Virus record (IMG/VR): IMGVR_UViG_2913177423_000001
Span: 1 to 64,000 of that record
Strand: one strand, 5' to 3'
DNA from: a virus
Lineage: Duplodnaviria; Heunggongvirae; Uroviricota; Caudoviricetes
DNA length: 64,000 bases
Translations under genes and position numbers: made by a program
The notes under the pieces: generated by a model
Told to the model about the DNA's origin: nothing
Database searches by the model: none
Seen by the model: only the letters and a program-made list of their open reading frames with translations
In this document: positions 610 to 57,536 of the stretch, one piece after another
Position numbering within the stretch: the stretch's first letter is position 1
How the letters are laid out: each line of letters opens with the position of its first letter

Positions 610-672
610 TTTAGTTGGGAAATAACAAACTGGATAAGTTTAAGCGGCGTTAAACGTCATTTCTGGAGGGGT

Positions 673-999: not shown

Positions 1000-1445
1000 T
1001 GGGTAACTTTGGGAATTATTTCATTTTTATCATGGCGTTTGTTGCCATCATTGACCGTTTCATTTTTCGTCGCAAGAGTGTTGAAATTTTGAGTATTGGT
1101 GACGCTGTAGTGAAAGAATCTGCTATCGCATTTCCTGTTTCGCTACGTGTTAAGCGAAGCTGGGTTAGCAATGCTCAAATCGAATATTGGCTGCAAGACC
1201 TGAAAAATCCATCTGTGGTTATTTCAGGGAAAACGCGACCAGTTGACGCTTCAAAACGCGGGGAGAGAGAAGAGTATTTGCTCATTGATACGAAATATCT
1301 TGAGCCAACGAAGTGGGATCTGAAAGTCACATTGACTAACGGTAACTGCCGACTGAATCCGCTTTATCGCATTTTCCCTATCAATGACTGCATAGAGCGC
1401 CAGTTTACGATCGAAAAACGTGAAGGAGACTGGAATGTCGAATAA
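999..1445 (+). CDS. hypothetical membrane-anchored protein (antiholin-like position)
   Basis: 148-aa ORF with N-terminal hydrophobic helix; start overlaps upstream stop. Confidence 0.4.
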   Translation: MGNFGNYFIFIMAFVAIIDRFIFRRKSVEILSIGDAVVKESAIAFPVSLRVKRSWVSNAQIEYWLQDLKNPSVVISGKTRPVDASKRGEREEYLLIDTKYLEPTKWDLKVTLTNGNCRLNPLYRIFPINDCIERQFTIEKREGDWNVE

Positions 1446-2052
1446 GGCTAATTATGTTCTTCTTAATTATGATGAGTTAAACGAAAAGGGACTGGCAAAA
1501 CTCGTCAAAGAAATCAGCAAAGGTGGTTACAAGATAGCGAGGGTGATCCCTGCCAGCAATGGCAGGAAGAAAGATGGGATCATGACACGCACGTTTACCC
1601 TTGTTGGTATTGATGAACAGACAATGGAAGTCCAGGTTAACGATACCGGAGATATATCTGGGATAAAACTGAACGGTAAAACAGTACCGTTCAAGCCAGT
1701 AAAAACAATGGCGGCTTTGGGGCAGTCTCTCGCGGCTTTATTTAATCGCGGAGCAACATCTTTCCAGAAATCATTAGCTCGAAAACTTGCTCGTGCAGCA
1801 AAAAATATTGATGAAGGAAATAAGAAGCGACAAGGGGTTAAATCCAACGCTCAGAAGTTAGCTGAAGCGAAAGAATCACGTGATGCGCTTCGTGAAGATA
1901 TCGCTAATGCTAACGACAAACTGGCTAAGATCCAAAGCAAGTCAGACAAGGCAATGCAAGATGCGGATAACGTTAAAGCGGCATTGTCTCAGGAACAAGC
2001 TAAGACGCGTGCGCTTAAAGAAGAAATCGCGCGTCTGGAGGATGAAGCATGA
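1435..2052 (+). CDS. hypothetical protein with C-terminal coiled coil
   Basis: ATG at 1435 with AAGGAG 6 nt upstream; Lys/Ala/Glu-rich C-terminus; stop overlaps next gene. Confidence 0.55.
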   Translation: MSNKANYVLLNYDELNEKGLAKLVKEISKGGYKIARVIPASNGRKKDGIMTRTFTLVGIDEQTMEVQVNDTGDISGIKLNGKTVPFKPVKTMAALGQSLAALFNRGATSFQKSLARKLARAAKNIDEGNKKRQGVKSNAQKLAEAKESRDALREDIANANDKLAKIQSKSDKAMQDADNVKAALSQEQAKTRALKEEIARLEDEA

Positions 2053-3998
2053 TTAAGAATCCCATACGGATCAATATTCAATCTACTTTCGCTGATACGA
2101 TTCCCGGTTATACACCGAGCCGCTGGTCTTCGGAGGATTTAAGTGAAGATGATCTGATTTTTGAAGCGGCTACATTAGAAGATATCGAGCTTGCCTATAT
2201 GGGCAATGAAATTCTTGTTGTGTCCGACGAAGCTATGTTTGAGGCCATTACTACGACCAGAATTAGGCTTGCACAAACAATGCGGGCTTTCGTGCGTGCG
2301 CTAAATCGTGGCTTGAATGGAACGAATATATCAGCAGGAACTGATGAAGCCGGGGCGGATGAAAATGGTCGGAATTGTATTGGCGGAGCAATTATCGGGC
2401 GTGTTCGTCGCGTAGCTAATATTCCTGTTTTAACAGCACAGATACCACTGACTGATGGGCAAAGCACAAGTATCATCTTCCACTCTCCAACCGCCGATGG
2501 CGCGAAAATCAAGAGTAATGATGAACTGGTTGCATTTCAGTTTTTACTTAATAAGCGTAACGTAACTCACGTTGTTGCCCCGATCGGCGGGAGAGATGTT
2601 TCTTTAAGCCAGGTTTGCCAGGCGCTTTCTAATTTGATTGAGCGTAACAGCGCAAAATTCAAGAAGGCAAAAGAGCGACAGGACAAAATGAAGGCGGATA
2701 TTGAGAGTTATCTCAATGAAGCTGATAAGCTGGCTGAAGAACGGTCAATGATGATTGAGCGGGTGGAAGTAGCGCAGCGTGGACTGACAGAAAAGCGCAA
2801 TGCCCTCGCGGAAATGCAGAAACAACTTGATGCACAGAAAGTCCTTAACGCAGAGTTGCAGGAAAAACGAGATAAGTTGCTGTCTTATAAAAAGAATAAA
2901 GCAAAAGAAAGAACTTTTAATGACCAACTTCGACACGTAAAACATAACCTTGCCACTGATGGTAAAACTACGCTGGATAACGGCGCTGTTGTAAATTATG
3001 TGACGTTAGATGGTGATAGCTTCGTTACGATCGCGGCACCAGAAGGTAATTTCAGTATTGATGTCGGTGACGTCAAAGGTGGCAGCCTGGCAGACGCGGC
3101 AACCAAACTACTTAAAGCCTATCGAGAACATAATGCTGATAAATACAAAGTAGATGTGTTGCCAGGACAGCCGGAGCCAACTGTTCAGTCACAGCCAGAA
3201 TTACAACAAGATTCTGATCCACAACCAGCATCTCCGCAAGATACTCAGCATGTAGGCAAATACCGCTATGCTCTTCAATCGCGCCCGGCGGGGGTTGGTG
3301 CGGTGCCGGATGGAAATACAGCCGTGCTTGACCGTCCCGACCAGGCTGACCCGTATTACGAGTATGCTCGTTACGGGATCATTACGTATGACCGTAAACT
3401 GACAGATGAAGAAGTCAGTCAGTATGAATTACGCTATCTACCTGATGACGATGAACTGAAAAATATGGCGGGGGAACTGGTTGCGTCCAGCATGGCAAAA
3501 CACATTGATGGCTATGTAGACCTGTTTGGCAGTGACTTGAAAACATTCAAGGCGCAAGTAAAAATTCTTTTCCGCAAAGAGTTTCCGAACGTGGCTTATC
3601 CGCTTGGTGATGGGGAGAACCTTTTCATTATGGACGTATATAACGCCCTTCAAAATCATTCAAACGAAGCAACGCCAGAGCCTGAATTAGCACCTGTAGT
3701 TGAGCCAGAATCACACCCACAAACAGAACCAGAGCAACAGCCAACGCCGGAAGATGCTGGAGAAGCGGCAACTGAAGCTGATCAGGAAGCAGATAAAGCG
3801 TTGGAGTACCTTAAATCCGTCCCGGTGCAGTTTACATCCCGCGATCTGACGGTAATCAGTGCCGAACTTGACCATGTGCAGGAAGCTGCAAACGCTCTTA
3901 TCAGTGCTGGTCGATACGACGAGAACGAATCAACGGTTGGCGCAGCAGTTGACTACCTGATCAACATTCTGGCTGAAATTCAGCAGGGAGGTGCTTAA
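2049..3998 (+). CDS. large acidic coiled-coil protein, possible DarA-like head-internal protein
   Basis: 649-aa ORF coupled to upstream gene; size and position after invertase and lysis-like genes recall the P1 darA operon; no motif-level confirmation. Confidence 0.5.
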   Translation: MIKNPIRINIQSTFADTIPGYTPSRWSSEDLSEDDLIFEAATLEDIELAYMGNEILVVSDEAMFEAITTTRIRLAQTMRAFVRALNRGLNGTNISAGTDEAGADENGRNCIGGAIIGRVRRVANIPVLTAQIPLTDGQSTSIIFHSPTADGAKIKSNDELVAFQFLLNKRNVTHVVAPIGGRDVSLSQVCQALSNLIERNSAKFKKAKERQDKMKADIESYLNEADKLAEERSMMIERVEVAQRGLTEKRNALAEMQKQLDAQKVLNAELQEKRDKLLSYKKNKAKERTFNDQLRHVKHNLATDGKTTLDNGAVVNYVTLDGDSFVTIAAPEGNFSIDVGDVKGGSLADAATKLLKAYREHNADKYKVDVLPGQPEPTVQSQPELQQDSDPQPASPQDTQHVGKYRYALQSRPAGVGAVPDGNTAVLDRPDQADPYYEYARYGIITYDRKLTDEEVSQYELRYLPDDDELKNMAGELVASSMAKHIDGYVDLFGSDLKTFKAQVKILFRKEFPNVAYPLGDGENLFIMDVYNALQNHSNEATPEPELAPVVEPESHPQTEPEQQPTPEDAGEAATEADQEADKALEYLKSVPVQFTSRDLTVISAELDHVQEAANALISAGRYDENESTVGAAVDYLINILAEIQQGGA

Positions 3999-4366
3999 TG
4001 ACTATCTCTGTTTTAGACCGTCTGAAATTGGGTAAAGAGCTATCAGATTTAATGCAGGCGCAGAAAACCGCGCCAGTATTACAACGCGTCGCAATTGGTA
4101 AGCAGATTGTTGATCTGATGCTTAAGCTGGGGCTGGGTGCTGCCGCTCAACCGATATCGGAACCGCAACCACAGTCTGATCCTGTTGCAGATGAAGTTCC
4201 TAAGATAGTGACTGACTTCTTGGGCGGTGTGTTCACAAAGTCGACACAAATGGAATTTATTGATGCGCTGCGTGGGATCTCAAACTATGTTGGCGAGTTC
4301 CTTACGTTGGAGCAGGCTAAAGAGCAGACCATCGGTTGGGTTAAAGCCAACGGATATGCCGGGTAA
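3998..4366 (+). CDS. hypothetical protein (122 aa)
   Basis: ATGA-coupled to the upstream gene; same operon. Confidence 0.55.
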   Translation: MTISVLDRLKLGKELSDLMQAQKTAPVLQRVAIGKQIVDLMLKLGLGAAAQPISEPQPQSDPVADEVPKIVTDFLGGVFTKSTQMEFIDALRGISNYVGEFLTLEQAKEQTIGWVKANGYAG

Positions 4367-4370
4367 TCAA

Positions 4371-4392
4371 AAGGGGCTGAAATGCCCCTTTC
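4371..4392 (+). terminator. putative intrinsic terminator or attenuator
   Basis: hairpin AAGGGGC-tgaaat-GCCCCTT just after stop of 3998..4366; weak U-tract. Confidence 0.4.
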
Positions 4393-4460
4393 ACTTATCT
4401 GTTCTCACATAAATCACACACTTTTTACACTTCCAGCTTTCTCTATAGGGGGAGTGTATT

Positions 4461-5846
4461 TTGAACAAGTCAGTTACTTCTGCGCTTTCCGAGGCCGCAG
4501 ACATTAACAGCGTCATTGCTCTGGTTTCTTCATTAGAGAGGAAGGAAACACGCCTGGGGCGAAGTAGCTACGTAGTCACCAGCAAAGGCGCAGAGGTAAA
4601 GACAGCTTTTAAGGTTGTTGATGCCAGTAGCCTAATCATTTCGAATAACCTTGACGGTACGATTAACACTGCATTCCCGGAAGAACTCCAGCCACGTGAT
4701 CGTACACGTCTATCTAGCAAACTTCAGGTTAACCGTATTGCCTCCAATTTACGCCCAGCACAATTAACGGATTCAGGAATGAGTAGCCACGGAGCGCCAA
4801 TAGTTGGGCCTGACAACGTTGTTGAATCTGGTAATGGAAGGAGTATGGGGATCTGGCGCGCCTATGAGCAAGGACAGGCAGATGAATATCGCCAGTACCT
4901 GATCGACCATGCGAAAGAGTTTGGTCTGAATCCTGACGAAATTTCGCAAATGTCTATGCCCGTACTGGTGCGTGAAAGACTCACTGATGTAGATCGTGCG
5001 CAGTTCGCTCGCGATTCCAACATAAGTGATCTGCAAGAGATGGCGGCGAGTGAGAAAGCGTATGCTGATGCGCAATTCCTCACTGAGAGCGTCATGGCGC
5101 TATTTAATCCTTCAGAAGATGGAAATCTACTGGCGCGGTCCAATGATGCTTTTATTCGTGCGTTTTTGCGCGAAATAGGCGATACCGCGACGGCGGGTTT
5201 GCTTACTGCCGATGGGCGCCCTACGAAACAGCTGATCGACCGCATCCAGAATGCGATTTTTGCCAAAGCCTACAAAGATGAGCGACTGGTCCGGTTGGTG
5301 GCGGAAGAGCCAGATCCGGAAATGCGTAACATCCTGACCGCACTCAATACGGCAGCCAGCGATTTTGCGCAAATGCAGTCGCTGTCTGGCGACGTTCACC
5401 ATGACGCCGTAACTGGTTTAGTGGACGGTATAGAGCAGGTTAACGGTCTGGATACACAGGCAATTGCGGCACTCCAGGAAGCAATCAATCTTGTTCGTGA
5501 AGCCAAAGACAACGGTCAGGCCGTTGAAGAAGTGATCGCCCAAAGGGGGTTATTCGGCGACAGCACGCCAGAAGCAGAGGCGTTGGCGCTATTCATCGTA
5601 GCAAATAATCGTAGCGCGAAGCGTATGGGGGCAGCATTCAAAAAAATGGCGCAAAAAATCAACGACGAGCTGATTCATAAACAACAGGCGCTTGGCGATA
5701 TGTTCGGTGGTGAAGAAGTCGATTTGCGCAGTATTTTGTCTGTTGTTTCTGATGAAATTGAGGCTGAGTTTGGTGAAGGGAAAGGTCTGAACTTTGCTAT
5801 GTTCGAAAATTCTACAGCCCTAAATAATTGCAGTACGGAAAACTAA
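4461..5846 (+). CDS. hypothetical protein (461 aa), possible virion-associated protein
   Basis: long ORF; TTG start at 4461 preceded by GGGGGAG; no recognisable catalytic motif. Confidence 0.55.
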   Translation: MNKSVTSALSEAADINSVIALVSSLERKETRLGRSSYVVTSKGAEVKTAFKVVDASSLIISNNLDGTINTAFPEELQPRDRTRLSSKLQVNRIASNLRPAQLTDSGMSSHGAPIVGPDNVVESGNGRSMGIWRAYEQGQADEYRQYLIDHAKEFGLNPDEISQMSMPVLVRERLTDVDRAQFARDSNISDLQEMAASEKAYADAQFLTESVMALFNPSEDGNLLARSNDAFIRAFLREIGDTATAGLLTADGRPTKQLIDRIQNAIFAKAYKDERLVRLVAEEPDPEMRNILTALNTAASDFAQMQSLSGDVHHDAVTGLVDGIEQVNGLDTQAIAALQEAINLVREAKDNGQAVEEVIAQRGLFGDSTPEAEALALFIVANNRSAKRMGAAFKKMAQKINDELIHKQQALGDMFGGEEVDLRSILSVVSDEIEAEFGEGKGLNFAMFENSTALNNCSTEN

Positions 5847-5910
5847 ACCAACCGCTGAAATCACATACTGATTATGCTGCCGCGAAACTGGAAACAATTC
5901 GCGGTGATTC

Positions 5911-8746: not shown

Positions 8747-8748
8747 GT

Positions 8749-8776
8749 GTATAAATCTACGGACATAGATTTATAC
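8749..8776. promoter_or_regulatory. perfect 11-bp inverted repeat, candidate operator
   Basis: GTATAAATCTA-cggaca-TAGATTTATAC immediately upstream of gene 8806..9768. Confidence 0.4.
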
Positions 8777-8805
8777 GGTAGATAGATTTTTCACGGAACT
8801 ATCTG

Positions 8806-11320: not shown

Positions 11321-11346
11321 GCCCCGGCCTGGCCGGGGCTTTTTTC
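11321..11346. terminator. bidirectional intrinsic terminator
   Basis: GCCCCGGCC-tg-GCCGGGGC hairpin followed by TTTTTT; lies between convergent genes. Confidence 0.7.
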
Positions 11347-11830
11347 ATGCCTCATTGGTTGAGGTTGCTGCATCTCCGACTGGTAACAGAGCTGTATTGC
11401 GTGGCTCGCCAGCAGGCCAGCGATAGCCCGACACTCTTGATGTCGGGAATGCACGAATATTCACCGCATCCCCCTGGTTCCCACCCAGGACAAGCAGATC
11501 GCCATTGGCGCGGCGTCCGACGATGAAGCCTACATGCCCACCGCCTACGCGGGTAAATACAACGATACATCCGTATGCTGGTGTATCCAGTTTCTCGCCC
11601 CAATCCAGATAGGATTTTGCCGACTCAAATCTTGTTGAGCGGATACCCACACGCTCTAACATTGCGCCAACAAATGCTGCGCACCACGGAGTTTCATCGT
11701 CTTTAATTCCGCCGCGTTTAATATCCCTCCAGAACTGGACGATTTCTGGATTGTGTTTAGCCCCTTTGATTTCAGTCAGGCCAATATGTTTACGGGCTTC
11801 CATCAGCCAACGAGGATCGGAACTTACCAT
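11345..11830 (-). CDS. CHAP/TIGR02594-like peptidoglycan hydrolase, endolysin candidate
   Basis: ATG with GAGGGG upstream; Cys motif TPWCAAFV and His motif GGHVGFIVG typical of CHAP-type hydrolases. Confidence 0.5.
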   Translation of the reverse strand: MVSSDPRWLMEARKHIGLTEIKGAKHNPEIVQFWRDIKRGGIKDDETPWCAAFVGAMLERVGIRSTRFESAKSYLDWGEKLDTPAYGCIVVFTRVGGGHVGFIVGRRANGDLLVLGGNQGDAVNIRAFPTSRVSGYRWPAGEPRNTALLPVGDAATSTNEA

Positions 11831-12021
11831 AACTACCCCTCTGATTAACAAACGAACATAAACTATGGGGAGTATGTGATTTTCATGGCAGCAATTTTCT
11901 TATCCCGGTACGCCCATAAGCCTTCCTTGTCCGTGGCATGTTGAGTGTTAACCGTATACTGAATGTTTGAGCTTTCTCATTAATTAACTATATGATTTAA
12001 ATCATAAATGTTGTTACGTTT

Positions 12022-12053
12022 CTTATTGTAGGATAGAACTGTCCCACAATAAG
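12022..12053. promoter_or_regulatory. imperfect 12-bp inverted repeat, candidate operator
   Basis: CTTATTGTAGGA-N8-TCCCACAATAAG just upstream of gene 12065..12436. Confidence 0.35.
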
Positions 12054-12064
12054 AGATTGCAAAC

Positions 12065-12436
12065 ATGAGACTGACAAGAAGAAAAAAAGAGATACTCAGC
12101 TACTTTGAACCGGATAACCGTGAGTGGGTGACAATGGAGATTGGATCGCCTCCGTTTGATGTGTCCGGGGTGGCTTACTTGCTGCATAGTACGGATGCAA
12201 TCGACAAACAGTATTATCTCGAATCAACAAGGCGAACACTTGAGGCTATGGTGCGTGATGGCCTGCTTGAACGGGTAAAATCGTATGAGAGGCGACAGAA
12301 CAGGACTCAGAGCGGTTGTGGCGATGGTGTTCGTTGTATGGTTGTTCGTTATGGCCTTCCAGGTCAGTGTGCTGTTATGCGAGATGATGCCGGGGGTGAA
12401 CACGCAATAGACGGTGAGTTCGTTCGTATCGCCTGA
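12065..12436 (+). CDS. hypothetical 123-aa protein upstream of darB-like gene (Ulx position)
   Basis: ATG at 12065; stop abuts the giant ORF; function inferred only from position. Confidence 0.45.
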   Translation: MRLTRRKKEILSYFEPDNREWVTMEIGSPPFDVSGVAYLLHSTDAIDKQYYLESTRRTLEAMVRDGLLERVKSYERRQNRTQSGCGDGVRCMVVRYGLPGQCAVMRDDAGGEHAIDGEFVRIA

Positions 12437-15400
12437 CCTTTTCCGCTCTTATTCTTCCAAATTAACACACTCCATACCCTTTCAAACCGTACCGCTACAG
12501 GCGGATTTAACGGTTTTGAGGGGGCTTCCTTTGGACAAAATAATTGATTCAATTAGCCAGGCCACCAGCATTGGGGCGCTGATTGAAATTGTTAGTCGGT
12601 TGCATAAACCGCGATCTGTTGCGACCTTTGGCGTTAAGAAAGTCGATGGTGTCAGCATTCAAAAAACACGGCGGGCAGCAAACAACGCCGCAGTAGAGCT
12701 TCTTAATTCCCTTCCGCCCGGATTCGATGGGGCGAAATTAACTGAAGAACAGCGTCAGATTCTCGCCGGGTATACAGGTGAAGGCGGCCTTACTGACGGC
12801 GAGGGCAGCCAATACGAATACTACACACCACAGTTTATGGCTGAAGGTATATGGGATCTGTTTGCTGACTACGGTATTGATGGGGGTCATGTACTGGAAC
12901 CATCAGCTGGCACGGGTATTTTCCAGGAGACAAAACGGCAGGGAATGATAATGACCAGCGCCGAGCTGTCTCCGATCTCCGGTCGAATCAACCAGCTGTT
13001 GCACCCGGAAGACGATGTGAACATTGGGGCGTTCGAGGCTCTGGCGGCGAAAGACGCAATGTATGACCACGCTGTTGGTAACGTACCGTTTGGCGAAGGC
13101 CGTTCCGGCGTTGCAGGGCTTGATCCGGCATATGCAAACGAGAAGAACGTTGGCAATTACTTTGTGCTGCGCACGATCGACAAGGTTAAACCTGGTGGGC
13201 TTATCGTATTGGTGGTGCCGAATGGCATGACTGATGGTACGAAATACAAAAAATTGCGCGATAAAGTCAGCCGTAAAGCGGAATTTTTGGGCGCGCATCG
13301 TATGCCTTCCGGTACGTTCAGTGAATCAGGTACAGATACCGTGGTGGACGTATGGGTATTGCGTAAACATCCAGAAGCCTTCCTGGAGATGATCCCCGAT
13401 ACGGACGATTCGACGCTCAAATCGGCAAACGTCCTTTGGGATACCTTTCTCAAAGGGAAATGGTTCACTACGGAAGGAAAACGCTTTGTTTACGGCGATA
13501 TGGAGCGTACCAGCTTCCGCAATACCCTGGTGGTGAAAAAGGACGGTCGTGTATCCAATGAGTCGATGAAAACCGCGCTATCTCGTCGCTTTGATAGTCG
13601 CATCAATTGGGATTTGCTCGGCGTAACTACTCAGGCATGGCAGGGCGCGAAAGTGGGCGATAAACGCCTTGTAGGCGGCATCTGGCATGAGTTTGATGGC
13701 CTGAAATGGGTCAAGGACACGACAACCAAATCCTCCGCGCTTGATGTAAGCCGATATGGTGTTTCGACGTTTGGCGATCTGCAGATCGCGTTTCAGTCAA
13801 CAAATGGCATTCTGGCGTTGTCATGGGACCAGATATCGGCGATCGCGTCCGACTATCCATCGGTTATCAGTGATGAAGTAGCTGCAATGATTCGCTTTGC
13901 AGGCAAGCAGCGAGAAAAAGACAGAGAGCGCGTTATGCGCGGCGCACTGATAGGGCAGTTGATCAACAAGGCGCTTGATTTGCGTAACCTGGGGGTGAAT
14001 GTTGATGACAAACTGGCAGATGCATCCCGCCTGGCGGCAGCAGAAGTTGCGAAGTATGGACCACCGCACGCGATTAAGCTGAATGGGATTGTTGAAGCTG
14101 GCGCTAAAAACTGGATGACGTTCACTGGGAACGTGAAACAGGATGGCTCTACTTCGGACCTTCTTGCCGGACGACTTGATGTAACTAATGGCGCATCAGG
14201 TATCGACTTTGCTCGCCCGGAACAGGTTGTTACACACCTTTTCAGCGATGTGGCCCTTAATCCGATAACACTGGACGATTTCCGTGAGGCGTTTACTGGC
14301 GAACTGCCAGAAGACGACGATGCCGCTCTGGAATACCTGGCTAAATTTGAAGATATCGCTATTGATGGGTATGGCTGCCTGCTACCAATGGACCGCGCCA
14401 CCAGCGGCGACATTGCAACCAAAACAGCATTGCTGGTGGGCTGGCGTGATGCAGCAACAGGTGAGCAGAAAGCGAACTTTGAGCGCCAGTTGGCGAAAAT
14501 CGAAGAGAAACGCATTTTCACGCCACTAAATAAAGTCACCGTTAATCTGAATGCCCGCTGGCTGGACCGCCGCTTGATAAAAGAGTTCCTGGCAGAACAG
14601 GGCTATGACGAGTTTAAGTACACAGAACCTGATCTGAAGGTCGTCGATGGCATTCTGGTATCCCCGGACGATTACGAAGGTAAGGACGGGGTATTTACTG
14701 GCTATCAGCTACGAACCGTAAACGGCAAAAACGGGAATGAGTTCAAGAAGGCCAACAATAAAGACGGCTTCCTGAACCAGTTAGAAAACTACCTGAACGG
14801 CGTCAAACCGCGAGGGCAGAACGCTAACGAGTACCTGGATAAGATTGCTCAACTTGAAGTTAGCTTTAACGACTGGTTACGCACTCACCCGCAGGCTGAT
14901 CAGATAGCCCGCGACTATAACGACGCATTCAATGGCTTCATCCCGTTTACACATTCTGACGCACCGCTTGGCCTGGAAGGGATTAGTGGGAAGCGCATTC
15001 CTCTGACTTATCAGAATGAGGAAGTTCGTCGCTTGTCAGAAGATGGGCGCGGCATCATGGGATTTGGCACCGGGCTTGGTAAAACCACGACTGCGCTTGC
15101 ACTTGAGGCGTATAACTTCGAAACAGGCCGAACTAAACGCACCTGTATTGTTGTCCCGAAAGCGGTTTATCAGAACTGGTATCACGAGGCTCAGAGCTTC
15201 TACAGTCCAGAAGCCTTCTCAAATATGATGTTTATCGGGCTTGATGAAGTTCGTGATGACGGCGGCAATATTCTTACCGCGCCAGTGCTTGATGAAAATG
15301 GTGAACCACGTCTGGACAGAAACGGTCAGCCTCTTACCCGCAATGTGGTGAAAGAGTCCTCCAGTGCCGTTATCGTTCAGCGCATGAACATGATCCCGTC

Positions 15401-18400
15401 GTCAAATTGGCGAACGGTCATCATGACAAAAGAACAATTCGCGTCTATCCCGCTACGAGAAAAAACCATCGAGGAGAACTCACAGCAAGCTGTCTTTAAT
15501 GCTGTTGAAATGGGGCGTCTTGACCTGGCGTCTGGCAAGCACCGTGACGCGCAGAAGAAGAACAAGATTAAGGACCAGGCCGCAAATACCGGGACCACGA
15601 AGAAGCAGAATATCCCGTACTTTGAGGATATGAACTTCGATAGCGTGATTGCCGACGAAGGGCATAACTACCGCAACTCATTTAATGCCGGGCGTGAAGC
15701 GGGGCAGATGGCATATTTGCCTAACCCGGCAGTATCCAAAATGGCCCGCGACATGGCTGTAAAAGCTGCGTACATGATGAAACGCAACAACGGGCGCGGA
15801 GTAGTTATGCTGACGGCAACACCGCTGGTGAACAGTCCGATTGATGCTTTCAACATGCTGTCTACTGTTATTCCGCAGGAAGAGTGGATGCGCATGGGCA
15901 TTATTACGCCGGATGATTTCGTTCGTGTGTTTGGCAAAACTGCCACCGTTCAGGTCCAGAAAATTTCCGGGGAAGTGGAAGAGAAGCAGGGGCTGGTGGG
16001 CTTCCAGAACCTTGATGGTCTGCGTGGTATTTTCCACCGTTGGACCACTCTGAAGACTGCTGCGGATGTTGGAGCGACGGTCAAAATCCCCGACATCATC
16101 GAGAATACCTTGCAGATCCCGATGACAGGGGAGCAGGAGGCTGCTTATGAAGAGCTTCGCAAGCGTGCACAAGAATTAAGTCGTAAAGATGCGCTGACAG
16201 TCGATGAAAGCGGGCATATCACAAGCGAAAAGCCGGATGACTTCATCTTCTCCATCATCCGCGACATGGATAAGGTTGCTATAGATCCGGATCTGTATGC
16301 CAGTGCGATTACATTCCAGTTCCCCGTTGAGCTTGCAGACAAGGTAAAAGCTATTGCTGATGGCCTGCCAAAAGTAGCTGGCGGTAAAGTGGCAGATGAT
16401 GCAGACGAGGCCGAGGAAGACGGCGCTGGCGGGCTGGTTAGTACGCGTACCAGCAAGGTAGTGAAGACCACCTTTAGTGAACATCCGGCGCATGTTGAAA
16501 TACGTGCCAGCATTGAACTGGAGGCTGAAATACTGAAGGCCATTGCTGCCGCCGGGATTGATATGCAGCAGGTATCACACCCCATCCCGCCGAAGTATGC
16601 CGCGCTGATCGAAAACCTTCGTGAAGGCCTGAAGAACGGTAAACAAATCGTCTTCATTGATGAAAAAGCCCAGCACCAGAAGCTGCGCCGTATTATCGCC
16701 AGTGCACTGCAAATGCCGGAGCAGGAGATAGGCATTATCAATGCGACGACCGTTAGCCAGGCTGGCGGCATCAAGCTGAAGAAGGTGAATAAGCCGACCG
16801 AACCTACTCCGAATAAAAACGGTGAATACAAAGAAGGGGCATGGGAAACCTACTACAGCAAACTTGCCCAATATGAGGATTATCTCTCAGCTAAAAATGA
16901 TGCTGGCCTTGAGGGTATGGAAGGCATTGCCGCCGACTATAACGAAGGTCGCACGCGCATCATTATCTGTAACAAGAAGGCTGAAGTAGGTATTAACCTG
17001 CATATCGGGACAACCGATATCCACCACCTGACACTACCCTGGACACCAGCCAGTATCGACCAACGAAATGGGCGCGGTGCGCGCGTAGGTTCACCGCAAG
17101 AGAAGGTCAATGTTCACTACTATTGTGGCAAAGGCACATTCGACGACTTCCGTCTGGATACGCTGAAACGTAAGAAAGACTGGATCAAGATGGTGATGAC
17201 CTCCGACATGTCAGAGATCGCCAATGGTGATGCGGATGATGCTGATGAACGCGCCATTATGCTGGCGGCAAACCCGGAAGAACGCCGCGCAATCATGGCT
17301 CGCCAGGCGCAAGAGCGTGAAGAACGTCTGAAACTGAAAGCACAGCGCGAGGCCAACAATGCTCTCGATATCTACCTGAAAGCGGCAAACGCCGCCGGAA
17401 AAGATATCGGCATGATGGAGACAGAACTGAAAAGCGCGATGGAACAGATAGAGTATTACCAGCGAAATCTTGACGACCTGATAAAAGCGGGTACGAACAG
17501 GAATGGGCAAAAATACGCGCTTGAGCAGTTGAGTAGCTACAGAAAACGTGCGCGGGTGCTGCGGTTTGCGATCACCAGGGCAAAAGACGCGGATACCATA
17601 ATGAAACGCTCTCGTGGTGATGTGGAGCGCGCTATTAAGTCTGGTGTGCTGGATATCAGTATCGATGTTATTCAGAACCCACAGGAATATATGCGCACTG
17701 ACAAGAATATCCTGTTGCATAAAGGTAGTTATTACCGTGCAGTCATTGATGATCGCGAAACAACAGCGATTGTCCGGGTGGAAAAAATTGACGGTGAAAA
17801 AGCACAATACCTCTGCCGTATCGCCTGGCTGGATAGAGCAAGTCGTTACGCTCGATCACCGGGGTCTATCGTTACATTGCCGTTTGACTCTGTGATTGAA
17901 GCGGTAACTTTTGAAGAGGGGGTAGCTGAATCGCGCGCAACGGCTGCGCGTGGTGTTCAGTGCCACCAGCTATCAACAATACTTACTCGCGATCAGTTCT
18001 ATGATGCTATTCGCAATGGGGTAATGAATGTTATTGCTGGTAAACCTGGTAATGCATGGGGCGGTGGGTCAGCTATTAAATACTGGGCATATCGCACAGA
18101 TGATGGTCAGATCGCGCTGTCATCGGCCTATGATGGCGTGATAGGCCAAAAAATCGGGCGAGCATCGGATATAGCACCTGAGCGATGGATATATCCTGAT
18201 GGCAACGACGAGGCGCTGAAGCGTGAAGTGGCAAAAATACAAGCCAGTGATAACCCGCTGAATATCGTGGACGGCGAGGGATTCCTCCAGGCATTGTATG
18301 GGTATGATTACATCCAGGGAATGCAGGCATGGGGCGCACAGGCAACGATGGATGATGTTGCCCAGGAGTTCGAAAACTGGATGGCTGGGCGTGGTCTGTC

Positions 18401-19367
18401 AGGTCGCTCGCTTAATAAAGTCACTTCTGAAGATATTCTTAGCTTGTTCCGCAAACCGTCCGGAGAAGGTCTGGAATCATTCTGGAGGACCGTGCTGGCA
18501 TACCGTTTATTCAAGGGCAGGATGAAAGCCTTTAGCAATATCGATGATATTGAACGGATGTTTAATCAGGTCAAGATCGCGAAAATTAAGACGAAGATCG
18601 AAAAGACACGTTCTGCGCTGGTGGCCTGGCGCGATGCATTGTTTGAGCAATATAAATCACTCAGTGATGCAGATGGATGGGCGGCACTGGAACAGTTGGC
18701 GAATAATGGGGTAGATGGAGCGAAACTCGCCATAGTCCAGGCTGATAACCCCCTGGAATCACCGGCAGCACAGTGGATTAAGGTGGGTGCTGTCATCAAT
18801 GCCTTTGATGAAAAACACATCAGTAAGGACGATTTTGCTGATGCTGTTTCCCTTAATCGCCTGGTAGAAATGGCTGTCCGCCGCGCTCGTGAGTTGAAAG
18901 ACGGTGACTATGTGAATGAGTTGCCAGATGCGCTCAAATCGGCAACGTGGCAAGACTATGTATCGCTGAAAAACGGCGGGGCCACTGAATCAGAGATCGC
19001 GGAAAGGCTTGAGCAGGCTGAAAGCAAAAGAGAAGAGCAGGCGGCAGAGGCTGAAGCCAGGGCTGATGAAGCGGCGAATGATGACTATATCATTGTGGTT
19101 AATGATAAGCCGATTCGCGCTAAGGCACGTGTTCGCGGGCGCTGGTGGAGTGTCAGCGAGGACGTTGGCGCGGTTTATCTCATTGCCGATCAGCCAGGTT
19201 CCTCGACAATACGGAACGCCAAAGACGCCATTAAGAAGATTGGCGGGCGTTTCTGGAATTTTGAAGCAAACCCGGTTGCTGATGTGAACTTTGACCGTCC
19301 GGCATGGATGGTATCTACGCGTTACTCGGTAGATGAACTGCGTAAAATAATAACCAACGCGGCCTAA
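12414..19367 (+). CDS. darB: DarB-like giant methyltransferase-helicase, putative anti-restriction protein
   Basis: 2317-aa ORF; SAM-MTase motifs LEPSAGTGIF and NVPFGE, helicase motifs GFGTGLGKTT, DEGH and QRNGRGARVGS; true start probably TTG near 12531 after GAGGGG. Confidence 0.8.
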   Translation: MSSFVSPDLFRSYSSKLTHSIPFQTVPLQADLTVLRGLPLDKIIDSISQATSIGALIEIVSRLHKPRSVATFGVKKVDGVSIQKTRRAANNAAVELLNSLPPGFDGAKLTEEQRQILAGYTGEGGLTDGEGSQYEYYTPQFMAEGIWDLFADYGIDGGHVLEPSAGTGIFQETKRQGMIMTSAELSPISGRINQLLHPEDDVNIGAFEALAAKDAMYDHAVGNVPFGEGRSGVAGLDPAYANEKNVGNYFVLRTIDKVKPGGLIVLVVPNGMTDGTKYKKLRDKVSRKAEFLGAHRMPSGTFSESGTDTVVDVWVLRKHPEAFLEMIPDTDDSTLKSANVLWDTFLKGKWFTTEGKRFVYGDMERTSFRNTLVVKKDGRVSNESMKTALSRRFDSRINWDLLGVTTQAWQGAKVGDKRLVGGIWHEFDGLKWVKDTTTKSSALDVSRYGVSTFGDLQIAFQSTNGILALSWDQISAIASDYPSVISDEVAAMIRFAGKQREKDRERVMRGALIGQLINKALDLRNLGVNVDDKLADASRLAAAEVAKYGPPHAIKLNGIVEAGAKNWMTFTGNVKQDGSTSDLLAGRLDVTNGASGIDFARPEQVVTHLFSDVALNPITLDDFREAFTGELPEDDDAALEYLAKFEDIAIDGYGCLLPMDRATSGDIATKTALLVGWRDAATGEQKANFERQLAKIEEKRIFTPLNKVTVNLNARWLDRRLIKEFLAEQGYDEFKYTEPDLKVVDGILVSPDDYEGKDGVFTGYQLRTVNGKNGNEFKKANNKDGFLNQLENYLNGVKPRGQNANEYLDKIAQLEVSFNDWLRTHPQADQIARDYNDAFNGFIPFTHSDAPLGLEGISGKRIPLTYQNEEVRRLSEDGRGIMGFGTGLGKTTTALALEAYNFETGRTKRTCIVVPKAVYQNWYHEAQSFYSPEAFSNMMFIGLDEVRDDGGNILTAPVLDENGEPRLDRNGQPLTRNVVKESSSAVIVQRMNMIPSSNWRTVIMTKEQFASIPLREKTIEENSQQAVFNAVEMGRLDLASGKHRDAQKKNKIKDQAANTGTTKKQNIPYFEDMNFDSVIADEGHNYRNSFNAGREAGQMAYLPNPAVSKMARDMAVKAAYMMKRNNGRGVVMLTATPLVNSPIDAFNMLSTVIPQEEWMRMGIITPDDFVRVFGKTATVQVQKISGEVEEKQGLVGFQNLDGLRGIFHRWTTLKTAADVGATVKIPDIIENTLQIPMTGEQEAAYEELRKRAQELSRKDALTVDESGHITSEKPDDFIFSIIRDMDKVAIDPDLYASAITFQFPVELADKVKAIADGLPKVAGGKVADDADEAEEDGAGGLVSTRTSKVVKTTFSEHPAHVEIRASIELEAEILKAIAAAGIDMQQVSHPIPPKYAALIENLREGLKNGKQIVFIDEKAQHQKLRRIIASALQMPEQEIGIINATTVSQAGGIKLKKVNKPTEPTPNKNGEYKEGAWETYYSKLAQYEDYLSAKNDAGLEGMEGIAADYNEGRTRIIICNKKAEVGINLHIGTTDIHHLTLPWTPASIDQRNGRGARVGSPQEKVNVHYYCGKGTFDDFRLDTLKRKKDWIKMVMTSDMSEIANGDADDADERAIMLAANPEERRAIMARQAQEREERLKLKAQREANNALDIYLKAANAAGKDIGMMETELKSAMEQIEYYQRNLDDLIKAGTNRNGQKYALEQLSSYRKRARVLRFAITRAKDADTIMKRSRGDVERAIKSGVLDISIDVIQNPQEYMRTDKNILLHKGSYYRAVIDDRETTAIVRVEKIDGEKAQYLCRIAWLDRASRYARSPGSIVTLPFDSVIEAVTFEEGVAESRATAARGVQCHQLSTILTRDQFYDAIRNGVMNVIAGKPGNAWGGGSAIKYWAYRTDDGQIALSSAYDGVIGQKIGRASDIAPERWIYPDGNDEALKREVAKIQASDNPLNIVDGEGFLQALYGYDYIQGMQAWGAQATMDDVAQEFENWMAGRGLSGRSLNKVTSEDILSLFRKPSGEGLESFWRTVLAYRLFKGRMKAFSNIDDIERMFNQVKIAKIKTKIEKTRSALVAWRDALFEQYKSLSDADGWAALEQLANNGVDGAKLAIVQADNPLESPAAQWIKVGAVINAFDEKHISKDDFADAVSLNRLVEMAVRRARELKDGDYVNELPDALKSATWQDYVSLKNGGATESEIAERLEQAESKREEQAAEAEARADEAANDDYIIVVNDKPIRAKARVRGRWWSVSEDVGAVYLIADQPGSSTIRNAKDAIKKIGGRFWNFEANPVADVNFDRPAWMVSTRYSVDELRKIITNAA

Positions 19368-19403: not shown

Positions 19404-19838
19404 ATGACGACATTAATCGATACCGTTAAACCGACAGAATCTTACCTTGAAGAAATTTTGCCGCAGGCGCTCAATGGCAGGAGTGAAGACGAGTTCCTGA
19501 CAGTATATCTTGCTGGGATGGTTGAAAGGCTAAAGAAAGATCCACAGCTTTATCACCTTTATGGTCCGTGGTGGCCTGCGCTTAAAACGATATTGCTGGA
19601 GCGCGGCGACACATCATTTGGACAGGTTGTAGATAGCGATGTGGCAGAGATCTACAGAATGAGTCGCCCGGCGCTTACGGTTTTAGCCGGGCATCTGTAT
19701 TCGAGCGAGCGCCTGGAAAATGACGCGGTATACAATCCAGTTCATGCTCTGGAAGTTGCACCTTATGCTGATGATACAGAGCCATACGTATACACTAGTT
19801 ACGACGAGTCTATAGAGAAATATCGAATTATGGGGTAG
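19404..19838 (+). CDS. hypothetical protein (144 aa)
   Basis: ORF following a GC hairpin after darB-like gene. Confidence 0.5.
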   Translation: MTTLIDTVKPTESYLEEILPQALNGRSEDEFLTVYLAGMVERLKKDPQLYHLYGPWWPALKTILLERGDTSFGQVVDSDVAEIYRMSRPALTVLAGHLYSSERLENDAVYNPVHALEVAPYADDTEPYVYTSYDESIEKYRIMG

Positions 19839-26970: not shown

Positions 26971-27048
26971 TAGCTAACTTTTTGCCAGTCTATACAGAAA
27001 TAACATTCTCATTATCATCCCCTCGGTCATTTCCTGCCTGGGGGATTA

Positions 27049-27441
27049 ATGGAGCATATCAGCAGCGCAGAAATTGCGGATATCATGATTAGGGCTGACT
27101 GCTATCTGACAGTCACCGAAATCACCACTCTCGCTAAAGAAAAATATCCTCACCTTCATGTTTCACGCGTAAGTGTAACCAACATCATTCGGCATTTTGT
27201 GCGGTCAAGCCGAGCTATTTGTGAGCTTGATGATCGTGTTTACCCACGGAAATACTGGTTGCATGGCCTGAACGGATATCAGTTCAAGGTGCGCGGGCGT
27301 ACCCCTGAATACGGCAGTTTGCTGGTTAAAAACTGTAGCAGGAAGTCTGCCGAACTGGCGCGACAAGAGCAGCGCGAGCTGGTGGACATGGCTAATAAGC
27401 TGTGGAATGCCGCAGTTAAAAAGCGTGGTGTTGCTTTATGA
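27049..27441 (+). CDS. hypothetical protein, late-promoter-activator (Lpa) candidate by position only
   Basis: 130-aa ORF directly upstream of small terminase gene and downstream of an operator pair. Confidence 0.35.
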   Translation: MEHISSAEIADIMIRADCYLTVTEITTLAKEKYPHLHVSRVSVTNIIRHFVRSSRAICELDDRVYPRKYWLHGLNGYQFKVRGRTPEYGSLLVKNCSRKSAELARQEQRELVDMANKLWNAAVKKRGVAL

Positions 27442-31562: not shown

Positions 31563-31579
31563 TTCCTAATTTTCTAACT
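31563..31579 (-). promoter_or_regulatory. C1-like operator motif copy
   Basis: TAATTTTCTAAC core within the intergenic region between the repressor candidate and cre-like gene. Confidence 0.4.
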
Positions 31580-31758
31580 TTAGATAATTGGCATTATTTA
31601 AAGTTAGTATATAATAATGATCAAACGATCAGTATTGACAGACTCAAAAAGTCATGGTTCGAATCAAGGGCTTAAATTTTAAATTCTCACGGATAACTAG
31701 CCTGTCATTTTTTGTTTTTTCGCGTAGCGACACCAATTTATAGAGGTGAAATGATTAC

Positions 31759-48951: not shown

Positions 48952-48983
48952 AAAAAAGCAGGCTTATTTTAAGCCTGCTTTTT
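48952..48983. terminator. bidirectional intrinsic terminator
   Basis: AAGCAGGCTT-atttt-AAGCCTGCTT with flanking A and T runs between convergent genes. Confidence 0.7.
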
Positions 48984-48989
48984 CGATTA

Positions 48990-49865: not shown

Positions 49866-50095
49866 TTTTCAACCTTTTGCCACAAATCCAGACCAACTAC
49901 CTAATAATAATAACTAACCACTCTGTTTTTTTGATAAGCACCAAATCGTTTACAAAAAAAATAGCAAATGACTATTGACACTATTCTGGAAATCACAAAC
50001 TGCACATAATCCATCGCGCTAACGGCTCCCGTTGAAGGTTCTTTTGACGATTAACTTTCAGCCGAAGCGCGGTAGGGAGTCATAACGCCAAAGCA

Positions 50096-50800: not shown

Positions 50801-51129
50801 TCACATCAGTAGCTTTGTTAACTCCCTCAATACCAGGTAGAAGAGTAACAAAAATACTGACGCCAGTATTTGCGTGGTCAATGAAGCGTTCATAAACAGA
50901 TCAATTAGCATTATTAATTCGAAAATAACATCCATGTCATTCGCTCAGTTTAATTTTTAATCTACTGCCAGTAAGTAATGAAGCTGGCCCCGCATAAAGA
51001 TTAATGAAAGTCACTTGTCACCAGTGAGGGGATTTATGAATCACATCTCCCTGAGCTGGTGGCCTGTCTGTTTCTCGCATTTCACACCCTGCATACAGTT
51101 TCCCCAGGTTATGACTGAGGATTTTTGTT

Positions 51130-54222: not shown

Positions 54223-54291
54223 ATGAATTGAAATCACAATCTCCAGACAATGCACCTTCGATACCTGATACATCGACCTTTGAGGATGCTT

Positions 54292-57490: not shown

Positions 57491-57536
57491 CCAATTGTGT
57501 TAGATAATTGAATAGAATTTTCTAACACAATTGGTG
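57491..57536. promoter_or_regulatory. large palindrome containing an inverted pair of C1-like operator motifs
   Basis: CCAATTGTGTTAGATAATTGAATAGAATTTTCTAACACAATTGG directly upstream of rdgC-like gene. Confidence 0.55.

What the first reader, a model, noticed from the sequence alone, without database searches (positions are those of the whole stretch)
12022..19367. DarB-like 2317-aa protein with a non-ATG start and a palindromic upstream site
The giant ORF combines an N-terminal SAM-methyltransferase-like region and SF2 helicase motifs, as described for the P1 anti-restriction protein DarB. There is no in-frame ATG near the 5-prime end; the best start is TTG at about 12531 after GAGGGG, or translation is coupled to the upstream 123-aa gene. 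An imperfect 12-bp inverted repeat (12022-12053) precedes the operon.
Basis: partly seen in the sequence, partly recalled or inferred. Interest (0 to 1): 0.45.

Follow-up and report, generated by a model that had tools for sequence, protein, structure and literature searches.

The report
DarB anti-restriction gene, TTG start
This is the already-annotated DarB anti-restriction gene of a D6-like (P1-family) plasmid prophage, which starts at TTG, while the palindrome upstream belongs to a separate small DNA-binding gene inserted next to it.

Summary
The observations hold, but the 2317 codons are only the mechanical ORF. The real product is 2278 aa, from TTG 12531 after the SD GAGGGGG. Three results support this. 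P1 DarB's Met1 aligns with that codon. Phage D6 has an in-frame TAG 36 nt upstream of its own TTG. All 28 TTG-lineage relatives examined keep CCT-TTG.

The protein is 97% identical to D6 orf15 and 43% identical to P1 DarB over 1935 residues. Its methyltransferase and SF2 helicase motifs are intact. Homologues of hdf, darA, ddrA, ddrB and ulx are all in the window. It is one gene, and it is already known.

Coupling to the 123-aa gene is rejected: a 94-nt gap separates them, and 22 of 34 relatives lack that gene.

The palindrome is not a darB element. It lies in a ~577-nt cassette inserted between two divergent putative late promoters. It accompanies the 123-aa family into unrelated prophages of at least five genera. 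That protein models as a winged-helix DNA binder, so the palindrome is probably its operator.

One extra finding: the darB leader folds into a covarying hairpin that pairs the SD with a sequence overlapping the putative late promoter's -10 box. It may silence read-through transcripts. This is untested.

The parts
12531..19367 (+). darB coding sequence: 2278 aa, TTG start, stop codon included
   Evidence: The D6 record and PGAP annotate the same start. P1 DarB aligns from residue 1. D6 has an in-frame TAG 36 nt upstream of its TTG. TTG is conserved in 28 relatives.
12414..12530 (+). Non-coding 5' extension of the mechanical ORF (39 codons)
   Evidence: Not conserved as coding. It is closed by a stop codon in D6. 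Part of it derives from the inserted cassette.
12518..12524 (+). Shine-Dalgarno GAGGGGG, 6 nt before the TTG
   Evidence: Read directly from the sequence. Conserved as GAGGGGG, AGAGGGGG, GAAGGGG, GAGGGA or GGGGGA in relatives.
12801..13520 (+). N6-adenine DNA methyltransferase domain (about residues 91-330): YYTP 97, PSAGTG 124, NVPF 184
   Evidence: Pfam N6_Mtase and Eco57I, both borderline. Weak match to HsdM 7eew. Motifs are shared with P1 and D6.
15006..17330 (+). SF2/SNF2-type helicase domain (about residues 826-1600): GLGKT 848, DEGH 1042, TATP 1095, QRNGRGAR 1511
   Evidence: Pfam SNF2-rel_dom, ResIII and Helicase_C. NCBIfam DrmD-like matches. Motifs confirmed.
18336..19364 (+). C-terminal 343 residues with no detectable similarity to P1 DarB
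   Evidence: The BLASTP alignment with P1 ends at residue 1935. No family hit.
12460..12480 (+). Putative Lpa-type late promoter of darB (AATTAACACACTCCA + -10 TACCCT at 12475-12480)
   Evidence: The motif is enriched in the window: 19 hits against 6.1 expected, 0 of 100 shuffles. It sits before late operons, including the positions of P1 LPdar and LPpro. This is an inference; no transcript data.
12471..12535 (+). Leader stem-loop. Helices: 12471-12474/12532-12535, 12477-12481/12518-12522 (anti-SD with SD), 12484-12490/12510-12516, 12492-12496/12500-12504
   Evidence: MFE fold, z = -2.9 in both the window and D6. RNAalifold consensus. 96% of cells paired, 4 pairs changed on both sides, 0 of 500 shuffles. 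Analogous hairpins with different sequence in L043 and L048.
11883..12459 (+). Inserted ~577-nt single-gene cassette, absent from D6
   Evidence: megablast homology to D6 starts at about 12459. Slot length: 23-25 nt in 22 of 34 relatives, 573-577 nt in 4. Junctions shown.
12065..12436 (+). 123-aa winged-helix protein gene (orphan family)
12021..12054 (.). Palindrome TTATTGTAGGATAG-N-CTGTCCCACAATAA: probable operator of the 123-aa protein, ending at its SD (AAGAG 12051-12055)
   Evidence: Present 32-37 nt before the start codon in all 8 family contexts examined, with unrelated flanks.
11967..11996 (+). Sigma-70-like promoter match (TTGAGC-18-TATGAT) for the cassette gene
   Evidence: Consensus scan. 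The -10 region is conserved in the E. fergusonii copy. Weak evidence.
11862..11882 (-). Putative late promoter motif for the divergent TIGR02594 hydrolase gene
   Evidence: Conserved between the window and D6.
11345..11830 (-). TIGR02594-family peptidoglycan hydrolase gene (homologue of D6 orf16)
19404..19838 (+). ulx homologue, directly downstream of darB as in P1
   Evidence: phrog_1629 'Ulx-like anti-restriction', E = 1e-58. The D6 record notes similarity to P1 ulx. P1 has the same gene order.
1420..5846 (+). hdf (1420-2052), darA (2049-3998), ddrA (3998-4366) and ddrB-like (4461-5846): the other Dar genes
   Evidence: PHROG hits. The D6 record notes similarity to P1 ddrB. P1 has the same order.
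27049..27441 (+). Lpa-like late transcription activator
   Evidence: phrog_1704, E = 1e-58.

Best explanation
The gene is the DarB orthologue of a D6-like, P1-family phage-plasmid. It encodes a 2278-aa polyvalent protein that starts at TTG 12531. The parts are an N-terminal capsid-targeting region, an EcoKI/TaqI-like N6-adenine methyltransferase, an SNF2-type helicase, and a C-terminal region specific to this lineage.

By homology with P1, the protein is made late in infection. It is packaged into the head with the help of Hdf, DarA, DdrA, DdrB and Ulx, all of which are encoded in the window. It is then injected with the DNA and protects that DNA in cis from type I restriction.

The 123-aa gene and its palindrome are not part of this system. 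They form a self-contained accessory cassette: a winged-helix DNA-binding protein with its own palindromic operator. The cassette is inserted in a variable slot between two divergent late promoters.

The darB leader forms a conserved stem-loop that pairs the Shine-Dalgarno sequence with a segment overlapping the putative late promoter's -10 box. My reading is that transcripts started at the late promoter lack this anti-SD segment and are translated. Transcripts that read through from upstream, for example from the cassette, keep it and stay silent.

Shown here: homology, start codon, domain motifs, gene context, cassette boundaries, palindrome conservation, the winged-helix fold model, and hairpin covariation. 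Inferred: packaging, anti-restriction activity, late-promoter identity, the transcription start, and operator binding.
For: Identity: 97% to D6 orf15 'defense against restriction' over all 2278 aa, and 43% to P1 DarB over residues 1-1935. phrog_1685 covers residues 1-2278.

Start codon: P1 Met1 aligns with the TTG codon. D6 has a TAG 36 nt upstream with no other start codon between. D6 and PGAP annotate the same codon. CCT-TTG is invariant in the TTG lineages. The first in-frame ATG would remove 102 conserved residues, including the region equivalent to the N-terminal 30-residue capsid-targeting signal that P1 needs (PMC9024508).

Domains and motifs. This matches the methylase-helicase dyad described for DarB (PMC5512222).

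Dar partners.

Cassette.

Palindrome with the gene family. Winged-helix fold.

Late-promoter motif.

Hairpin. SD accessibility is 0.07-0.17 in read-through transcripts and 0.29-0.62 in modelled late transcripts, in six lineages. No terminator was found between the cassette gene and darB.
Against: - No experiment on D6-like DarB is known to me. Packaging and type I protection are extrapolated from P1 at 43% identity.
- The first 30 residues are only weakly similar to the P1 targeting signal.
- Pfam N6_Mtase scores just below its cut-off (20.2 against 20.4 bits). Motif IV is NVPF rather than NPPF/Y, so catalytic activity is unproven.
- The last 343 residues do not match P1.
- The late-promoter motif is my own derivation, and the PWM scan is partly circular.
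- The transcription start is assumed to lie 7 nt after the -10 box.
- The covariation rests on roughly 4-6 independent lineages of closely related sequences, and the structure was derived from those same sequences.
- In modelled late transcripts the SD is still partly paired with the start-codon region.
- Operator binding by the 123-aa protein is untested.
Confidence: 0.85

Rival explanations
1. The hairpin is present in all darB transcripts. Together with the weak TTG start codon it simply lowers translation of a very large protein needed in only a few tens of copies per virion, or it stabilises the 5' end of the mRNA. There is no promoter-dependent gating.
For: TTG and the hairpin co-occur in every TTG lineage. 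P1 packages about 40-45 DarB copies per virion (PMC9024508; PMC12810830). The late-transcript model still leaves a 5' terminal stem-loop and a partly paired SD. The transcription start is not known.
Against: In four sequence-divergent lineages the anti-SD segment sits on or just after the conserved TAnnnT element, not further downstream. The ATG lineage L051 also pairs its SD with the CTCCA of the promoter spacer.
Confidence: 0.35
2. Translation begins at GTG 12414 to give the full 2317-aa product, or is coupled to termination of the 123-aa gene.
For: The ORF is open from 12414 and overlaps the last 23 nt of the 123-aa gene.
Against: There is no SD before 12414. The 39 extra codons are cassette and leader sequence, and they are closed by a TAG in D6. 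22 of 34 relatives lack the upstream gene. The stop codon at 12434-12436 is 94 nt from the TTG. An N-terminal extension would bury the region equivalent to the P1 capsid-targeting signal.
Confidence: 0.03
3. The 12022-12053 palindrome acts as an RNA hairpin in the 5' UTR of the 123-aa gene, controlling translation or stability, or it is a recombination site at the cassette boundary. It is not a protein-binding operator.
For: It lies between the predicted promoter and the SD, and its right arm abuts the SD. Conservation of the family unit begins right at the palindrome, with unrelated sequence upstream. That placement would also suit a cassette end.
Against: Variants in Pantoea, Enterobacter and E. 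fergusonii change one arm without compensation, and the A/C asymmetry at the eighth position is conserved. The gene product models as a winged-helix DNA binder. The Enterobacter locus has two copies flanking a -10-like GATAAT, an arrangement typical of operators.
Confidence: 0.25
4. The protein is a generic SNF2 helicase or methylase of the plasmid, for example part of a restriction-modification or defence system, and not an injected anti-restriction protein.
For: PGAP names it only 'SNF2-related protein'. NCBIfam gives weak matches to the DISARM DrmD and DpdE helicases.
Against: Those matches lie far below their cut-offs (45 bits against 610). The protein is collinear with P1 DarB from residue 1. 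ulx is adjacent and the full Dar operon is present. A late-promoter motif lies upstream.
Confidence: 0.05

Closest known systems
Phage D6 orf15 (ASR76325.1, 'defense against restriction, similar to P1 darB')
   Same: 97% identity over the identical length of 2278 aa. Same TTG start, same leader hairpin, and same downstream ulx and orf13 genes.
   Different: D6 has an empty slot of 24 nt upstream. The window carries a 577-nt cassette with the 123-aa gene and palindrome.
Phage P1 DarB (AAQ13985.1, 2255 aa)
   Same: 43% identity, collinear over residues 1-1935. All methyltransferase and helicase motifs are shared. ulx follows, and hdf-darA-ddrA-ddrB are present elsewhere.
   Different: P1 starts at ATG, after AAGGA, and has a different leader without the hairpin. 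P1 darB is divergent from prt-pro and is annotated with a sigma-70 promoter. The C-terminal ~340 residues are unrelated. The late-promoter box differs: AAGTKACTT in P1, AAATCACA..CT here.
DarB-like methylase-helicase polyvalent proteins of Bcep22-like, Thermus, Ralstonia and other phages
   Same: They share the N6-methyltransferase plus SNF2 dyad (PMC5512222).
   Different: Only 25-33% identity over parts of the protein, embedded in much larger or differently composed polyproteins.
Winged-helix repressors (MarR, ArsR, BlaI/MecI, DsrD-like), for the 123-aa protein
   Different: No sequence-family membership. It has a long C-terminal tail and sits alone at prophage edges.

Membership tests
P1-type DarB (injected anti-restriction methylase-helicase) | Full-length collinear sequence homology to P1 DarB | tested here: met
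   BLASTP gives 43% identity over residues 1-1935 (P1 residues 1-1924), E = 0. The last 343 residues do not match.
P1-type DarB (injected anti-restriction methylase-helicase) | N6-adenine methyltransferase domain with motif I (xxGxG) and motif IV ((N/D)PP(F/Y)-like) | tested here: met
   PSAGTG at residue 124 and NVPF at 184, identical to P1. Pfam N6_Mtase scores 20.2 bits against a cut-off of 20.4, so it is borderline. HsdM 7eew matches at E = 1e-3.
P1-type DarB (injected anti-restriction methylase-helicase) | SF2/SNF2 helicase with motifs I, II (DExH), III and VI | tested here: met
   GLGKT 848, DEGH 1042, TATP 1095, QRNGRGAR 1511. Pfam SNF2-rel_dom, ResIII and Helicase_C all score above their cut-offs.
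P1-type DarB (injected anti-restriction methylase-helicase) | Genomic association with ulx and the hdf-darA-ddrA-ddrB operon | tested here: met
   ulx lies 37 nt downstream. hdf, darA, ddrA and a ddrB-like gene span 1420-5846.
P1-type DarB (injected anti-restriction methylase-helicase) | N-terminal ~30-residue capsid-targeting signal and packaging into virions | not testable with these tools
   The N-termini align from residue 1, but the first 30 residues are only weakly similar. The signal is defined experimentally in P1 only (PMC9024508).
P1-type DarB (injected anti-restriction methylase-helicase) | Protection of the injected DNA in cis against EcoK/EcoB type I restriction | not testable with these tools
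   Needs plating assays with a knockout.
P1-type Lpa-dependent late promoter | -10 hexamer TANNNT without a -35 box, with a conserved upstream box about 4-9 nt before it | tested here: met
   TACCCT at 12475-12480 is preceded by AATTAACACACTCCA. The same architecture occurs at 9 intergenic sites.
P1-type Lpa-dependent late promoter | P1 -22 box consensus AAGTKACTT | tested here: not met
   The P1 consensus is not enriched in the window: 29 hits against 23.5 expected. The D6-lineage box is AAATCACA..CT instead.
P1-type Lpa-dependent late promoter | Lpa activator encoded by the element, and sites placed before late operons | tested here: met
   An Lpa-like gene lies at 27049-27441. Motifs occur at the positions equivalent to P1 LPdar (620) and LPpro (5858), and before baseplate and tail genes.
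P1-type Lpa-dependent late promoter | Lpa-dependent transcription start | not testable with these tools
   Needs 5' RACE or RNA-seq after induction.
Winged-helix (wHTH) autoregulatory DNA-binding protein (123-aa gene) | Winged-helix fold | tested here: met
Winged-helix (wHTH) autoregulatory DNA-binding protein (123-aa gene) | Membership of a curated wHTH sequence family (MarR, ArsR, BlaI and others) | tested here: not met
   No hit in Pfam, PHROGs, NCBIfam, PADLOC or the PDB profile search.
Winged-helix (wHTH) autoregulatory DNA-binding protein (123-aa gene) | Palindromic operator at its own promoter or 5' region | tested here: met
   TTATTGTRGGATA-N3/4-TATCCYACAATAA lies 32-37 nt before the start codon in all 8 contexts examined. 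Binding itself was not tested.

The most novel reading that the evidence does not exclude
The darB leader may be a promoter-coupled translational gate. The anti-Shine-Dalgarno segment is built into the -10 and spacer region of an Lpa-type late promoter. Only transcripts initiated at that promoter would lose it and be translated, while read-through RNA, for example from accessory genes inserted just upstream and expressed in the lysogen, would be silent. This would also explain why the slot directly upstream tolerates alternative single-gene cassettes. One of these is a previously undescribed, widespread winged-helix family that carries its own conserved palindromic operator.
Probability: 0.3. 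Interest if true: 0.45.

Novelty: already known. Interest (0 to 1): 0.2.

Why it matters
For the finding as stated, little is new. The D6 lineage DarB and its TTG start are already in GenBank and RefSeq.

The check is still useful for annotation. The true N-terminus matters because in P1 the first 30 residues direct DarB into the capsid.

Two by-products could be followed up:
- A covarying SD-sequestering leader overlaps a putative late promoter. It offers a simple, testable way for a phage-plasmid to keep a large injected enzyme untranslated from read-through transcripts.
- An orphan winged-helix family occurs in about 465 protein clusters across Enterobacterales. It always carries the same 30-nt palindrome and sits alone at prophage edges or in a phage-plasmid hotspot. 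It may be a lysogeny-expressed regulator, and its target is unknown.

Tried and rejected
- First structure model of the 123-aa protein, from 33 close homologues: pLDDT 48.6, unusable. A deeper alignment fixed this.
- Homologue search with the C-terminal 378 residues of DarB: it returned only fragments of the same protein, because of the candidate cap, and says nothing about the domain.
- Genome-contig scan: only 4 loci, and none added a new leader lineage. One had a D6-type leader, and the Rosenbergiella contig is cut at residue 44.
- Rfam scan of 11800-12700: only a chance-level hit.
- P1 late-promoter consensus in the window: not enriched.
- A second copy of the palindrome elsewhere in the window: none beyond chance.
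- Terminator between the cassette gene and darB: none found.
- Papers not held: Lobocka 2004 (P1 genome), Gilcrease & Casjens 2018 (D6 genome) and Piya 2017. I could therefore not check whether D6 late promoters or the darB start have been discussed in print.
- Rejected starts: GTG 12414 and TTG 12516 (not conserved, no SD), and ATG 12837 (removes 102 conserved residues).
- Rejected reading: the hairpin as a terminator, since no U-tract follows it on either strand.
Full report
**1. What is at the coordinates**

The ORF list gives 12414..19367 (+), 2317 aa, starting at GTG. The translation is uninterrupted. In that frame the only start codons before the first ATG are GTG 12414, TTG 12516, TTG 12531 and TTG 12600. 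The first ATG is at 12837, codon 142 of the ORF. TTG 12531 follows GAGGGGG (12518-12524) by 6 nt.

The inverted repeat is real. CTTATTGTAGGA and TCCCACAATAAG match at 11 of 12 positions across an 8-nt spacer. It can be extended to 16-nt arms at 12021-12054. About ten loci in the window carry a repeat of this quality, and random sequence gives few. The repeat is therefore not decisive on its own.

**2. Origin of the window and identity of the gene**

The region matches Escherichia phage D6, a P1-family plasmid prophage, and about 118 D6-like plasmids of Escherichia, Salmonella and Shigella.

The product from TTG 12531 has these matches:
- 97% identity over its full 2278 aa to D6 orf15, annotated 'defense against restriction; similar to P1 gene darB'.
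- 43% identity to P1 DarB over residues 1-1935.
- PHROG 1685 covers it end to end, and it also hits 'DarB-like antirestriction'.
- Pfam finds SNF2-rel_dom, ResIII and Helicase_C above their cut-offs, and N6_Mtase just below (20.2 bits against 20.4).

The motifs are present and identical in P1 and D6:
- Methyltransferase: YYTP 97, PSAGTG 124, NVPF 184.
- Helicase: GLGKT 848, DEGH 1042, TATP 1095, QRNGRGAR 1511.

This is the methylase-SNF2 dyad described as the DarB archetype (PMC5512222). The only solved relative by sequence is a type I HsdM subunit, and the match is weak. No frameshift or internal stop splits the gene.

The last 343 residues have no counterpart in P1 DarB. I could not identify them.

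The rest of the P1 Dar system is in the window:
- hdf, 1420-2052; darA, 2049-3998; ddrA, 3998-4366; a ddrB-like gene, 4461-5846.
- ulx, 19404-19838, directly after darB as in P1.

**3. The start codon**

Four independent lines point to TTG 12531.
- P1 DarB begins with ATG, and its Met1 aligns exactly with the TTG codon: MNKL... against MDKI....
- In D6 the frame is closed by TAG 36 nt upstream of its TTG, and no start codon lies between.
- The D6 authors and PGAP both annotate this codon.
- The string CCT-TTG-GA is invariant in all TTG-lineage relatives. This includes lineages with only 75-86% amino-acid identity and otherwise divergent leaders.

More distant relatives, at 71-72% identity, use ATG at the equivalent place.

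The 39 codons upstream of the TTG are leader and cassette sequence, so the product is 2278 aa, not 2317. [quoted passage not shown]

Coupling to the 123-aa gene is rejected. Its stop codon (12434-12436) is 94 nt from the TTG. In addition, 22 of 34 related elements have no gene there at all.

**4. What the palindrome and the 123-aa gene are**

Similarity to D6 begins only at about 12459. Two copies of a motif face away from each other, at 11882-11862 (-) and 12460-12480 (+). I interpret the motif as a late promoter (section 5). The space between the two copies varies among related elements:
- 23-25 nt in 22 of 34 elements.
- 573-577 nt in four, including the window. This insert is the 123-aa gene cassette.
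- 655-680 nt in five. This insert is a different single gene, a lipoprotein with a CarboxypepD_reg-like domain.
- 86 nt in one, a remnant of the 123-aa cassette.

The 123-aa protein has no Pfam, PHROG, NCBIfam, PADLOC or PDB sequence match. It nonetheless has about 465 homologous clusters across Enterobacterales, and 90 representatives at 50% identity.

In Enterobacter and E. coli, Serratia, Pantoea, Rouxiella and Pectobacterium it sits alone at the edge of unrelated prophages or islands.

In all eight contexts examined the same roughly 30-nt palindrome lies 32-37 nt before the start codon and runs into the SD. Its consensus is TTATTGTRGGATA-N3/4-TATCCYACAATAA. The sequence further upstream is unrelated. 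Enterobacter has two copies. The changes affect one arm only and are not compensated, which fits a DNA site better than an RNA stem.

The simplest reading is a small winged-helix regulator with its own operator, carried as an accessory cassette. The palindrome occurs only once in the window. It is therefore not a darB or 'operon' signal.

**5. A late-promoter motif and a structured darB leader (my additions, inferred)**

P1's annotated late promoters read AAGTKACTT-N4-TANNNT. That consensus is not enriched in the window.

A different 21-nt motif, AAATnACAnnCTnnnTAnnnT, is enriched: 19 hits against 6.1 expected, 0 of 100 shuffles. It lies in intergenic gaps at these places:
- Before lydA-hdf-darA, at the position of P1 LPdar.
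- Before the portal and protease genes, at the position of P1 LPpro.
- Before the ddrB-like gene, the hydrolase gene and darB.
- Before the lpa homologue.
- Before baseplate and tail genes.

An Lpa-like activator is encoded at 27049-27441.

For darB the -10 element is TACCCT, at 12475-12480. The leader folds into a stem-loop with three nested helices around an apical hairpin:
- CCCUU (12477-12481) pairs with the SD GAGGG (12518-12522).
- AAACCGU pairs with ACGGUUU.
- UCCA (12471-12474) pairs with UGGA of the start-codon region.

D6 folds in the same way, with z = -2.9 in both. Across 12 distinct leaders, 96% of cells are paired and four pairs change on both sides. No shuffle out of 500 reaches the observed score, and slid controls fall to 19-61% paired.

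Two further lineages have quite different stem sequences that still pair the SD:
- L043: CCCUUCACAU with AUGUGAGGG.
- L048: CCCCCCACU with AGUGGGGG.

In each of these the 5' arm starts on or right after the TAnnnT element.

If transcription starts about 7 nt after the -10 box, late transcripts lose the anti-SD segment. The modelled probability that the SD is unpaired rises from 0.07-0.17 in read-through RNA to 0.29-0.62 in late RNA, in six lineages. No terminator separates the cassette gene from darB.

I therefore propose that the leader silences read-through transcripts and permits translation from the late promoter. The rival is a constitutive throttle acting together with the weak TTG codon. 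That rival cannot be excluded without a mapped transcription start.

The caveats are few independent lineages, a structure derived from the same sequences, and a self-derived promoter motif.

**6. Mechanism, by homology**

In P1, DarB (about 40-45 copies per virion) is the last Dar protein loaded into the head. Loading depends on Hdf and DarA, then DdrA, DdrB and Ulx. DarB is injected with the DNA and protects it in cis against EcoK and EcoB (PMC9024508; PMC12810830; PMC5512222).

The proposed chemistry is adenine methylation of the incoming DNA coupled to SNF2-type translocation. All sequence features needed for this are kept here.

**7. Verdict**

The giant ORF is an ordinary, already annotated DarB orthologue of a D6-like phage-plasmid. 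The length, the coupling idea and the role given to the palindrome are not.

Interest in the finding as stated is low. The leader hairpin and promoter overlap, and the winged-helix cassette family with its conserved operator, are modestly interesting side results.

Noticed in passing
window 11883-12459; loci L001, L003, L013, L014, L024, L047: A variable slot lies between two divergent late-promoter-like motifs of D6-like elements. It is empty (23-25 nt) in 22 of 34 elements. Four hold a 573-577-nt winged-helix cassette, five hold a 655-680-nt lipoprotein cassette (lipobox LSGC, CarboxypepD_reg-like), and one holds an 86-nt remnant of the winged-helix cassette. TTGTTATCC-like direct repeats occur near both ends of the winged-helix cassette.
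   Followed up: partly
window 620-640, 4411-4431, 5858-5878, 11862-11882(-), 12460-12480, 26998-27018, 49990-50010, 51079-51099, 54231-54251: A 21-nt motif, AAATnACAnnCTnnnTAnnnT, is enriched (19 hits against 6.1 expected) and sits before late operons and before the lpa homologue itself. It is likely the D6-lineage counterpart of P1's Lpa-dependent late promoters, but with a different upstream box.
   Followed up: partly
window 18336-19364 (DarB residues 1936-2278): The C-terminal 343 residues of D6-lineage DarB show no similarity to the C-terminus of P1 DarB and match no family. This may be a swapped effector or packaging module.
   Followed up: partly
window 4461-5846: The ddrB-like gene encodes 461 aa and starts at TTG. 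That is less than half the size of P1 DdrB, whose CDS is 2988 nt. It matches only the N-terminal part of longer PHROG profiles.
   Followed up: no
L015-L019 (Enterobacter/E. coli chromosomes), gene at 6001-6375: The 123-aa family gene is the outermost gene of a prophage integrated next to fis. It has two copies of the palindrome about 50 nt apart, flanking a GATAAT -10-like box.
   Followed up: partly
L050, L051-L053, L055 (IMG/VR contigs): DarB relatives at 71-72% identity use ATG instead of TTG. In L051 the SD (UGGAG) still pairs with the CUCCA of the promoter-like element.
   Followed up: partly
window 8748-8777, 31574-31607, 48952-48984, 57496-57529: Other strong inverted repeats in the window, of the same or better quality than the one reported. 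I did not examine them; they may be terminators or operators.
   Followed up: no
L012 (NZ_CP091837.1): In this plasmid a transposase gene lies directly upstream of the darB leader, next to the 86-nt-type remnant. This is further evidence that the site accepts insertions.
   Followed up: no
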